Part shown: piece after piece, positions 1,009 to 2,403 of the stretch
Numbering within the stretch: position 1 is the stretch's first letter
Layout of the letters: every line of letters starts with the position of its first letter
From: Escherichia coli
Lineage (GTDB): Bacteria > Pseudomonadota > Gammaproteobacteria > Enterobacterales > Enterobacteriaceae
Reading direction: 5' to 3' (one strand)
Length of the DNA: 64,000 nucleotides
Assembly (NCBI RefSeq): GCF_044324875.1
Contig: NZ_CP172185.1
The notes under the pieces: model-generated
Told to the model about the DNA's origin: nothing
Seen by the model: only the letters and a program-made list of their open reading frames with translations
Database searches by the model: none
Position numbers and translations under genes: made by a program

Positions 1009-2403
1009 TCAGAAGAAGTATTTAAAGCGAACGCGTGCCCCGTAACGGTCATCAGTATCATCACCGTGTTTTTTATCACCGTCGCTATCCAGAATGGAGT
1101 AATACGTCCCGAGGTAAATATTAAAGTTCTCCATATCCATCACATTAGCGAACTGATAAGACGCATGAATGGTATGAATGGTGTACGTCCCTTCATCATC
1201 AATCCAGCAGTCGTTATCACAAACTACACCGCTGAATTCATCAATCTTATTGTGCGCGTAGATATAACCCAGCTCGAAACGTTTCCACAGCGCGTTAATC
1301 CCGGCAGTGAAATCTTTCTCATTATTAGCATCTAAATAGGCGGTATTAAGATTAACCACGACGCCATTTTCCGGATCCGTTTTCAGGCCATTCCAGGTCA
1401 TGCTCATACCATAGCCGGTACGATCGGACTGATCGACAAAATTACCCTTGCTATCGGTATAACCATAAGCATTATTTACTACGTTCGCTTCCATCGCTGC
1501 GGAAACGGTGAATTCTTCCGTCGGCGACCAGGCAATTACTGGACGCAGATAAGCAACATTTTTCTGCCGCTCCATATCGCGTCCATGATAATTACCGTCA
1601 TTATATAAAGATGTTCCGTCTTCAAGTAACGTGTTTAATTCAAAATACCAGTTATCAAGTTGTTTGCTGACGAGGAAATTACCGCCAGCGTTAGAGCGCC
1701 CGCGGCCCTCTTTCATCATATAGATATAACCGCTGCCATCGTCATAAAGATCGTTCGCAGTATTACCGGAATGTTCAACAAAGGTATCCTGATTCAGCGG
1801 GAACATATCGTAGGCTTCAAAACGGCCTACTTTGACCTTCCAGTCGTTTTCTTTGCCAAAGAAGAATACCGCATCATCGATATTTACTGAACCGTGCATG
1901 TCCCCCAGCGGTTGTGCGGAGAACCCGGCGAAATAACCGTTGTCCATCTTTCGCATACCATCAAAACCTAACAGAATACGACCATTGAGATTCCACTGTT
2001 CATTAGTGGGATCGCTATTCACATCAGCGTTGGTCATTGCCAGCAGGCCATGATTACTTTCTGCATCCATATTAAATTCTACGTCGCCGTAGATTTTTAA
2101 ATCGCCATAACCTGAGAGCAAAAGATTAGGTGAGGTGGAATTTTTCTTTGCAGATTCCGCCGTTGCCTGTCCATTTACCGGCGTATTGCCCTGGGCAGCC
2201 TTAATTTCGCGGATCTCAGCGGCTTGTTGTGTCTGCAGCTGTTTAACCTGGCTCTCTGCTTTTGCTGCCCGCATTTCTGCAGCTTCCAGGCGTTCTTCCA
2301 GCAATGCCATGCGTTGTTCCAGCGTTAAATGCTGTGTTTTTGCCATTCCGGTACTACATGCCAATAATAAACCGATGGCTAAAGATAATGTCGATTTTTT
2401 CAT
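1009..2403 (-). CDS. Putative outer-membrane porin (signal peptide, N-terminal coiled coil, C-terminal Phe)
   Basis: 464-aa ORF; N-terminus MKKSTLSLAIGLLLACSTGMA then heptad-like LEQRMALLEERLEAAEMRAAKAE; Gly/Tyr/Asn/Asp-rich body ending in F, typical of beta-barrel porins. Confidence 0.6.
   Translation of the reverse strand: MKKSTLSLAIGLLLACSTGMAKTQHLTLEQRMALLEERLEAAEMRAAKAESQVKQLQTQQAAEIREIKAAQGNTPVNGQATAESAKKNSTSPNLLLSGYGDLKIYGDVEFNMDAESNHGLLAMTNADVNSDPTNEQWNLNGRILLGFDGMRKMDNGYFAGFSAQPLGDMHGSVNIDDAVFFFGKENDWKVKVGRFEAYDMFPLNQDTFVEHSGNTANDLYDDGSGYIYMMKEGRGRSNAGGNFLVSKQLDNWYFELNTLLEDGTSLYNDGNYHGRDMERQKNVAYLRPVIAWSPTEEFTVSAAMEANVVNNAYGYTDSKGNFVDQSDRTGYGMSMTWNGLKTDPENGVVVNLNTAYLDANNEKDFTAGINALWKRFELGYIYAHNKIDEFSGVVCDNDCWIDDEGTYTIHTIHASYQFANVMDMENFNIYLGTYYSILDSDGDKKHGDDTDDRYGARVRFKYFF

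What the first reader, a model, noticed from the sequence alone, without database searches (positions are those of the whole stretch)
1009..2403. Porin gene with coiled-coil N-terminal extension between rhaM and frvA
K-12 has, to my recollection, no gene between rhaM and frvA. Here a 464-aa signal-peptide protein with a coiled-coil segment and beta-barrel-like body sits there, convergent with rhaM and divergent from frvA. It may be a sugar-specific porin linked to the adjacent PTS or rhamnose loci.
Basis: partly seen in the sequence, partly recalled or inferred. Interest (0 to 1): 0.4.

Follow-up and report, generated by a model that had tools for sequence, protein, structure and literature searches.

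The report
Chromosomal RafY-type sugar porin gene
The gene between rhaM and frvA is an intact outer-membrane sugar channel of the known RafY family, carried by about half of complete E. coli genomes but lost from K-12, so it is real but ordinary.

Summary
Window 1009-2403 (minus strand) is an intact 464-aa ORF. It is convergent with rhaM, divergent from frvA and absent from K-12. It is not new. It matches Pfam PF16966 (Porin_8, "RafY glycoporin") end to end at E=1e-153. RefSeq annotates it as "carbohydrate porin", and 2557 of 5426 complete E. coli genomes carry it. An O157:H7 paper calls the homologue rafY2. It is 77% identical to RafY of plasmid raffinose operons and has the same length.

The AlphaFold model shows a signal helix, a 44-residue helix with a conserved heptad pattern, a disordered linker and a 16-stranded barrel. 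Its closest solved folds are 16-stranded porins, not LamB or ScrY.

Citrobacter, Kluyvera and Klebsiella have the orthologue next to rhaM, and Enterobacter has it next to frvA. So the gene is old at this site and K-12 lost it. In Klebsiella and Enterobacter it sits beside rafR-rafA-rafB genes, so the E. coli copy looks like an orphan rafY. B2 strains keep the porin without frv, and K-12 keeps frv without the porin, which argues against a functional link to frv.

The most likely function is diffusion of oligosaccharides across the outer membrane, inferred by homology only. Interest is low.

The parts
1009..2403 (-). Complete CDS (464 aa plus stop) of a RafY-family carbohydrate porin
   Evidence: ORF list. 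PF16966 hit at E=1e-153 covering residues 104-464 and model positions 1-372 of 372. RefSeq annotates the same gene as 'carbohydrate porin'. dN/dS is 0.05-0.08.
2341..2403 (-). Signal peptide codons (residues 1-21, MKKSTLSLAIGLLLACSTGMA, predicted cleavage A21|K22)
   Evidence: Read from the sequence. The n/h/c regions and the ...A|K(T/S) motif are conserved in homologues. The model has a helix at 3-19. No signal-peptide predictor was run.
2191..2328 (-). Periplasmic coiled-coil extension (residues 26-71)
   Evidence: Single helix 28-71 with pLDDT 83-87. The a/d positions L28 M32 L35 L39 A42 A46 A49 V53 L56 are 97% hydrophobic in 17 homologues, against 20% at other positions. Glu at e and Arg at g are conserved. 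Weak Sugarporin_N match (PF11471) at residues 27-54, E=0.024. Several homologues carry a precomputed PF11471 hit.
2113..2190 (-). Low-complexity, poorly conserved linker (residues 72-97)
   Evidence: pLDDT below 50 for residues 74-97. The region varies among homologues.
1012..2112 (-). Beta-barrel domain (residues 98-464) with 16 long strands, ending in ...RFKYFF
   Evidence: DSSP strands of the AlphaFold model, with pLDDT mostly above 90. The top Foldseek PDB matches are 16-stranded porins at E=1e-12 to 1e-9.
974..1002 (.). GC-rich hairpin between the convergent stop codons of rhaM and the porin; probable two-way terminator or mRNA end structure
   Evidence: Fold energy is -20.9 kcal/mol on the plus strand (z=-4.7) and -28.1 kcal/mol on the minus strand (z=-6.4), with 0 of 200 shuffles as stable. 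Neither side has a U-tract, and the terminator scan did not call it.
2404..2744 (-). Porin-specific upstream region (341 bp, 34% GC), absent from K-12, holding the RBS AGGGAA (2412-2417) and candidate promoters
   Evidence: K-12 homology resumes at 2745. GC content. A TTGGTT-17-TGTTATATT motif at 2600-2572 is partly conserved in Citrobacter. The scan found TTAAAA-18-TATATT at 2495-2466, but promoter-like sites are no more frequent than in shuffles. No transcription start is shown.
970..2744 (.). The whole segment present here but replaced by 164 unrelated bp in K-12-type genomes
   Evidence: blastn of the window against K-12 locus L002. The same two-piece match pattern appears in many porin-less E. 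coli genomes.

Best explanation
The gene encodes the chromosomal E. coli member of the RafY glycoporin family. After signal-peptide cleavage, the C-terminal ~365 residues insert into the outer membrane as a 16-stranded beta-barrel, probably as a trimer. The N-terminal ~45-residue helix would then form a parallel coiled coil in the periplasm, joined to the barrel by a flexible linker. By homology with plasmid RafY (77% identity, same length), the channel lets di- and oligosaccharides such as raffinose, sucrose, maltose and maltodextrins diffuse across the outer membrane. It probably acts as a wide general pore rather than through a sugar-binding site. In this genome it is an orphan: a single gene with its own AT-rich upstream region and no rafR, rafA, rafB or rafD partners. 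It occupies an old, variable slot between the rha and frv/fdh loci. The gene at this slot predates the split of Escherichia from Citrobacter, Kluyvera, Klebsiella and Enterobacter, and K-12 and other porin-less E. coli lost it by deletion. Shown here: gene integrity, family membership, predicted fold, heptad pattern, synteny and purifying selection. Inferred: substrates, trimer state, the role of the coiled coil, and expression.
For: The match to PF16966 is full length, 512 bits against a cut-off of 25. The protein is 77% identical to the RafY of a plasmid rafR-A-B-D-Y operon and has the same 464 aa. The model has mean pLDDT 81.5 and shows a helix at 28-71 and 16 long strands. Foldseek places it among 16-stranded porins including BpsOmp38, VhChiP, OmpU, OprP, PorB, OprB and DcaP. 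The heptad a/d pattern and the e/g Glu/Arg pairs are conserved, and the B2 allele has lost exactly one heptad. dN/dS is 0.05-0.08. The orthologue lies next to rhaM in Citrobacter, Kluyvera and Klebsiella and next to frvA in Enterobacter. rafR-rafA-rafB lie beside the porin in Klebsiella and Enterobacter chromosomes. In Buttiauxella the porin is the last gene after an ABC transporter and GH13/GH130 glycosidases. Papers describe RafY as a glycoporin for maltose, sucrose and raffinose uptake, and note a rafY homologue (rafY2) in O157:H7 that has no rafRABD (PMC4809568). A RafY-family porin of K. pneumoniae, GlyP, acts as an alternative nutrient porin (bioRxiv 10.64898/2026.03.29.715108).
Against: No experiment on this chromosomal copy was found in the searchable literature. 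Expression, inducer and substrates are therefore unknown. The N-terminal 135 residues are only 33-70% identical to plasmid RafY, so properties that depend on that part may differ. The trimer state and coiled-coil pairing were not modelled. The promoter calls are no better than chance. The strand count comes from a predicted model, not a solved structure, and no family member has a solved structure detectable by sequence.
Confidence: 0.85

Rival explanations
1. The porin is the outer-membrane entry route for the unknown substrate of the adjacent Frv phosphotransferase system, and the two share the divergent control region.
For: The divergent frvA/porin arrangement seen here also occurs in Enterobacter, where frvA is 68% identical.
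Against: B2 E. coli have lost frvABXR and part of the next gene but keep an intact, constrained porin. Citrobacter, Kluyvera, Klebsiella and Pseudocitrobacter have the porin without frv. K-12 keeps frv without the porin. In the shared intergenic region only the frvA-proximal block is conserved between E. coli and Enterobacter, and that block lies in the part K-12 also retains.
Confidence: 0.05
2. The porin serves the rhamnose pathway, for example by taking up rhamnose-containing oligosaccharides, because it is kept next to rhaM.
For: It lies directly beside rhaM in Escherichia, Citrobacter, Kluyvera and one Klebsiella.
Against: The gene is convergent with rhaM and separated from it by a strong hairpin, so the two are not co-transcribed. 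In K. grimontii and Pseudocitrobacter other sugar genes lie between the porin and rhaM. In Enterobacter no rhaM was found within the ~7 kb fetched downstream of the porin. K-12 lacks the porin yet retains the rha genes at this locus; that it grows on rhamnose is established knowledge. The adjacency is explained equally well by shared descent.
Confidence: 0.05
3. The gene is a recently acquired island or a silent, decaying remnant with no current function.
For: It is present in only about 47% of complete E. coli genomes. The gene is 45% GC and its upstream region 34% GC, against 50.6% for the window. It has no partner genes.
Against: It occupies the same slot in four other genera. The porin gene is 4-7 GC points below its surroundings in every genus, so low GC is a family trait. 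dN/dS is 0.05-0.08, and the reading frame is intact in all alleles examined.
Confidence: 0.05

Closest known systems
RafY of E. coli raffinose plasmids (pRSD2 type; TC 1.B.15; Pfam PF16966 Porin_8)
   Same: Same family and same length (464 aa), 77% identity overall and 83-97% across the barrel. Both have the signal peptide, N-terminal coiled-coil extension and barrel.
   Different: This copy is chromosomal and stands alone instead of being the last gene of rafRABDY. The N-terminal 135 residues are only 33-70% identical. Its function has not been tested.
GlyP of Klebsiella pneumoniae (RafY-family alternative porin repressed by the LacI-type regulator GlyR)
   Same: It is assigned to the same family and is a chromosomal alternative porin that supports nutrient uptake.
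   Different: GlyP sits in an operon with a regulator, a permease and a hydrolase. The E. coli gene has no adjacent regulator or catabolic genes. The GlyP sequence was not compared directly here.
ScrY sucrose porin / LamB maltoporin (sugar porin family, TC 1.B.3)
   Same: Both are outer-membrane sugar channels. ScrY also has an N-terminal periplasmic coiled coil, and the Sugarporin_N domain gives a weak hit here (E=0.024) and passing hits in some homologues.
   Different: There is no barrel-domain sequence match at E<=1. The model has 16 strands, whereas LamB has 18 established strands (PMC4827864). LamB and ScrY are absent from the top 50 fold matches.
DcaP of Acinetobacter baumannii (PDB 6eus)
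   Same: It is a 16-stranded porin fold match (E=9e-9). From my own knowledge, not tested here, DcaP also has an N-terminal periplasmic coiled coil that stabilises its trimer.
   Different: Only 14% identity and a different family. DcaP takes up dicarboxylates, which is also recalled rather than tested.

Membership tests
RafY glycoporin family (Pfam PF16966 Porin_8; TC 1.B.15) | Full-length sequence match to the family profile above the curated cut-off | tested here: met
   512.3 bits against a cut-off of 25, E=1e-153, covering model positions 1-372 of 372.
RafY glycoporin family (Pfam PF16966 Porin_8; TC 1.B.15) | Close similarity to the founding member, plasmid RafY | tested here: met
   77% identity over the full length, and the same 464 aa, to the porin at the end of a plasmid rafR-A-B-D-Y operon.
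RafY glycoporin family (Pfam PF16966 Porin_8; TC 1.B.15) | Outer-membrane beta-barrel with 16 predicted strands, a signal peptide and a C-terminal aromatic residue | tested here: met
   The AlphaFold model has 16 long strands, and TCDB lists 16 for the family (PMC4827864). The protein ends in F464, and the N-terminus looks like a signal peptide. All of this is prediction only.
RafY glycoporin family (Pfam PF16966 Porin_8; TC 1.B.15) | Encoded with raffinose or other oligosaccharide utilisation genes | tested here: not met
   No raf genes lie near the gene in the window. The feature is met by homologues in Klebsiella, Enterobacter, Buttiauxella and on plasmids. This is gene context, not a defining property of the protein.
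RafY glycoporin family (Pfam PF16966 Porin_8; TC 1.B.15) | Forms a wide diffusion channel that passes oligosaccharides | not testable with these tools
   This needs bilayer or liposome-swelling measurements and growth tests.
Sugar porin family LamB/ScrY (Pfam PF02264; TC 1.B.3) | Sequence match of the barrel to the LamB profile | tested here: not met
   No LamB-family hit at E<=1 in Pfam.
Sugar porin family LamB/ScrY (Pfam PF02264; TC 1.B.3) | 18-stranded barrel | tested here: not met
   The model has 16 long strands. All of the best fold matches are 16-stranded porins, and LamB and ScrY are not in the top 50.
Sugar porin family LamB/ScrY (Pfam PF02264; TC 1.B.3) | ScrY-type N-terminal periplasmic extension (PF11471 Sugarporin_N) | tested here: inconclusive
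   15.3 bits against a cut-off of 25.7, E=0.024, at residues 27-54. Several homologues at 62-78% identity carry a precomputed PF11471 hit.
OprB carbohydrate-selective porin family | Sequence match to the OprB profile | tested here: not met
   No Pfam hit. There is only general fold similarity to P. putida OprB, PDB 4gey, at E=1.4e-10 and 11% identity.

The most novel reading that the evidence does not exclude
The orphan chromosomal RafY-type porin may be a conditionally useful wide 'alternative porin'. On this reading, its presence in only about half of E. coli genomes reflects a trade-off: better scavenging of oligosaccharides in the gut against greater outer-membrane permeability to antibiotics, bile or phage. 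This would parallel what was recently reported for GlyP in K. pneumoniae. The gene would also be the chromosomal source and continuing recombination partner of plasmid rafY. Support for that part comes from mosaic plasmid alleles that are 97-100% identical to the chromosomal gene across residues 226-415 but 33-63% identical at the N-terminus.
Probability: 0.25. Interest if true: 0.4.

Novelty: already known. Interest (0 to 1): 0.15.

Why it matters
The practical value is small. The result confirms that K-12 is a poor reference for the E. coli outer-membrane protein set: about 47% of complete genomes carry one more wide sugar channel than K-12. RafY-family porins were recently shown to change fitness and compensate for porin loss in carbapenem-resistant Klebsiella. 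An uncharacterised E. coli counterpart could therefore matter for nutrient competition and for antibiotic or phage entry. Nothing here changes what is known about how such porins work.

Tried and rejected
- **NCBIfam:** no meaningful family.
- **PDB sequence search:** only chance hits to dehydroquinase at E~0.6, so no family member has a solved structure detectable by sequence.
- **Rfam on 900-3000:** only a chance miRNA hit below threshold, so no known regulatory RNA in the leader.
- **Promoter and terminator scan:** site counts no higher than in shuffled sequence. The two candidate promoters are leads only.
- **Leader hairpin (TTCC-N4-GGAA) upstream of the RBS:** conserved in Citrobacter but not significantly stable (z=-1.65) and not conserved in Kluyvera or Klebsiella. 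Dropped.
- **Lipoprotein reading of the LLAC16 motif:** rejected because the Cys is missing from Citrobacter, Kluyvera, Klebsiella and other orthologues, while the ...A|K signal-peptidase I site is conserved.
- **Remnants of the porin or raf genes in the K-12 164-bp filler:** none found in any fetched locus.
- **Shared frvA-porin regulatory sites:** only the frvA-proximal block is conserved with Enterobacter.
- **Recent horizontal transfer as the cause of low GC:** rejected because the porin gene is 4-7 GC points below its neighbourhood in every genus.
- **Original RafY paper (PMC179467):** not held. Its content is cited only through other papers or marked as recalled.

Full report
**1. The observation**

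It runs from 1009 to 2403 on the minus strand, starts with ATG and encodes 464 aa. rhaD (3-644) and rhaM (654-968) lie upstream on the plus strand. frvA (2880-3326), frvB, frvX and frvR lie on the other side. The gene is therefore convergent with rhaM and divergent from frvA.

The 40 bp between the two stop codons fold into a strong hairpin at 974-1002. Its energy is -20.9 kcal/mol on the plus strand and -28.1 kcal/mol on the minus strand (z=-4.7 and -6.4), and none of 200 shuffles folds as well. It has no U-tract.

The window is E. coli. Other parts of it match complete E. coli genomes at 98.7-99.2%. The porin gene is 99.4% identical to that of strain 042.

**2. What the protein is**

Pfam gives a full-length match to PF16966, Porin_8 "Porin-like glycoporin RafY". 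The score is E=1e-153, 512 bits against a cut-off of 25, covering residues 104-464 and model positions 1-372 of 372. There is a weak, sub-threshold hit of residues 27-54 to PF11471 (Sugarporin_N, the ScrY-type periplasmic extension) at E=0.024. NCBIfam has no model for it. No PDB entry is related by sequence.

RefSeq annotates the same gene as "carbohydrate porin". The gene at the end of a plasmid rafR-rafA-rafB-rafD operon in E. coli is also 464 aa and is 77% identical. A paper on O157:H7 states that this serotype has no rafRABD but carries a rafY homologue annotated rafY2 (PMC4809568).

**3. Structure**

I built an AlphaFold2 model from a 41-sequence alignment. It has mean pLDDT 81.5 and pTM 0.71. 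The elements are as follows:

- a signal-peptide helix at residues 3-19;
- one long helix at residues 28-71 (pLDDT 83-87);
- a disordered linker at residues 74-97;
- a barrel of 16 long strands at residues 100-463, mostly pLDDT above 90, with a long loop at 195-240 after strand 5.

Foldseek against the PDB returns 16-stranded porins at E=1e-12 to 1e-9. These include BpsOmp38, VhChiP, OmpU, OprP/OprO, PorB, Omp32, OprB, OmpF and DcaP. LamB and ScrY are not in the top 50. TCDB also lists RafY as 16-stranded (PMC4827864).

The helix has a clean heptad pattern. Positions L28, M32, L35, L39, A42, A46, A49, V53 and L56 are hydrophobic in 97% of 17 enterobacterial homologues, against 20% at other positions. 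Glu at e (residues 29, 36, 43, 50) and Arg at g (31, 38, 45) are conserved, as expected for a parallel coiled coil.

The B2-phylogroup allele has lost exactly one heptad, RMALLEE at residues 31-37. The deletion lies between two imperfect GCTGGAA(C/G)AACGC direct repeats, which fits a constraint on the helical register.

Most distant family members are 350-390 aa and lack the extension altogether.

**4. Distribution and history**

Of 5426 complete E. coli genomes, 2557 carry at least 80% of the gene. Of these, 1378 have the full rhaM-porin-frvA arrangement.

In B2 strains frvABXR is deleted. The porin upstream region there abuts a truncated DUF3829 gene and fdhD.

In K-12-type genomes, window 970-2744 is replaced by 164 bp of 31% GC sequence. 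That sequence matches nothing in any fetched locus.

Alleles are under strong purifying selection. dN/dS is 0.078 against the closest genome and 0.049 against B2.

Orthologues occupy the same region in other genera:

| Genus (identity) | Arrangement |
|---|---|
| Citrobacter (84%) | HTH-cupin regulator, porin, then rhaM convergent |
| Kluyvera (83%) | HTH-cupin regulator, porin, then rhaM convergent |
| Klebsiella sp. B345 (75%) | LacI-type regulator, GH36 alpha-galactosidase, LacY-type permease, porin, then rhaM convergent |
| Enterobacter (75%) | frvRXBA divergent from porin, followed by an EEP-family gene, rafR, rafA, rafB |
| K. grimontii | Other sugar genes between the porin and rhaM |
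| Pseudocitrobacter | Other sugar genes between the porin and rhaM |
| Buttiauxella (63%) | Porin ends an ABC-transporter/GH13/GH130 cluster |

The porin is thus the constant element of a variable slot between rha and frv/fdh. Its presence is ancestral and K-12 lost it. The gene set that recurs beside it is rafRAB, not frv or rha. The porin gene is 4-7 GC points below its surroundings in every genus, so its low GC here (45% against 50.6%) is not a sign of recent transfer.

**5. Mechanism**

By homology, the protein should be an outer-membrane diffusion channel for di- and oligosaccharides. [quoted passage not shown] The one biophysical study is titled as showing a general diffusion pore rather than a carbohydrate-specific porin (reference list of PMC4827864).

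A related K. pneumoniae porin, GlyP, is repressed by a LacI-type regulator. When de-repressed it gives a conditional fitness gain by improving nutrient uptake.

In this E. coli the gene has its own 341-bp, 34% GC upstream region and no adjacent regulator. Candidate promoters at 2600-2572 (partly conserved in Citrobacter) and at 2495-2466 are no better than chance. Rfam finds nothing in the leader. Expression and inducer are unknown.

**6.

A link to frv is contradicted in both directions. B2 E. coli, Citrobacter, Kluyvera and Klebsiella have the porin without frv, and K-12 has frv without the porin. Only the frvA-proximal part of the intergenic region is conserved with Enterobacter.

A link to rhamnose rests only on adjacency. 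The orientation is convergent with a hairpin between the genes, and other genes are inserted there in some genera.

A decaying remnant is contradicted by the low dN/dS and the intact reading frames.

**7. Verdict**

The gene is nevertheless an already annotated member of a known porin family, carried by about half of sequenced E. coli. What remains open is its regulation and physiological role as an orphan. That question is modest in scope but can be tested directly.

Noticed in passing
window 2293-2313 (codons 31-37); L003 6410-7783: The B2-phylogroup allele of the porin lacks exactly one heptad of the coiled coil (RMALLEE). The 21-bp deletion lies between imperfect direct repeats GCTGGAA(C/G)AACGC, which suggests replication slippage that preserved the helical register.
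   Followed up: partly
L004 8003-9397 and L012 8001-9395 compared with window 1009-2403: Plasmid rafY genes look mosaic relative to the chromosomal gene. Plasmid RafY is 33-70% identical over residues 1-135 but 83-97% over 136-420. Another plasmid allele (P0029) is 97-100% identical over residues 226-415 but 33-63% at the N-terminus. This suggests recombination between the plasmid and chromosomal copies. No formal recombination test was run.
   Followed up: partly
L003 7784-8700, corresponding to window ~2862 onward: In B2 E. coli the whole frvABXR operon and the start of the next gene (DUF3829 family, annotated as a pseudogene missing its N-terminus) are deleted. The porin's upstream region therefore abuts the fdhD side.
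   Followed up: partly
window 2356-2367 (residues 13-16, LLAC): The E. coli signal peptide contains a lipobox-like L-L-A-C motif with Cys16. The Cys is absent from orthologues in the other genera, so it is probably incidental, but lipidation was not excluded.
   Followed up: partly
window 2745-3400 and 1009-2403: The region is unusually divergent within E. coli. The frvA side is only 90.9% identical to K-12, and synonymous divergence of the porin between this strain and B2 is 0.26. Only 4 of about 5600 matching records reach 99% identity over 600-3400.
   Followed up: no
window 15328-20517: A nest of insertion sequences: an IS110-family transposase ORF (15328-16122), IS21-type istA and istB (16123-18541), and IS3-family orfA and orfB (19160-20517).
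   Followed up: partly
window 18500-24400: No complete E. coli genome covers 80% or more of this stretch near yiiE/yiiF. It holds small ORFs with no Pfam hit and an HTH_3/MqsA-like antitoxin-type ORF at 22500-22790 (minus strand). It appears to be a strain-specific variable region.
   Followed up: no
window 2793-2822; L014 ~6510-6540: A block upstream of frvA (TGAGCGCGGATATGTC...GTGACA) is conserved between E. coli and Enterobacter. It may be an frv promoter or operator element.
   Followed up: no
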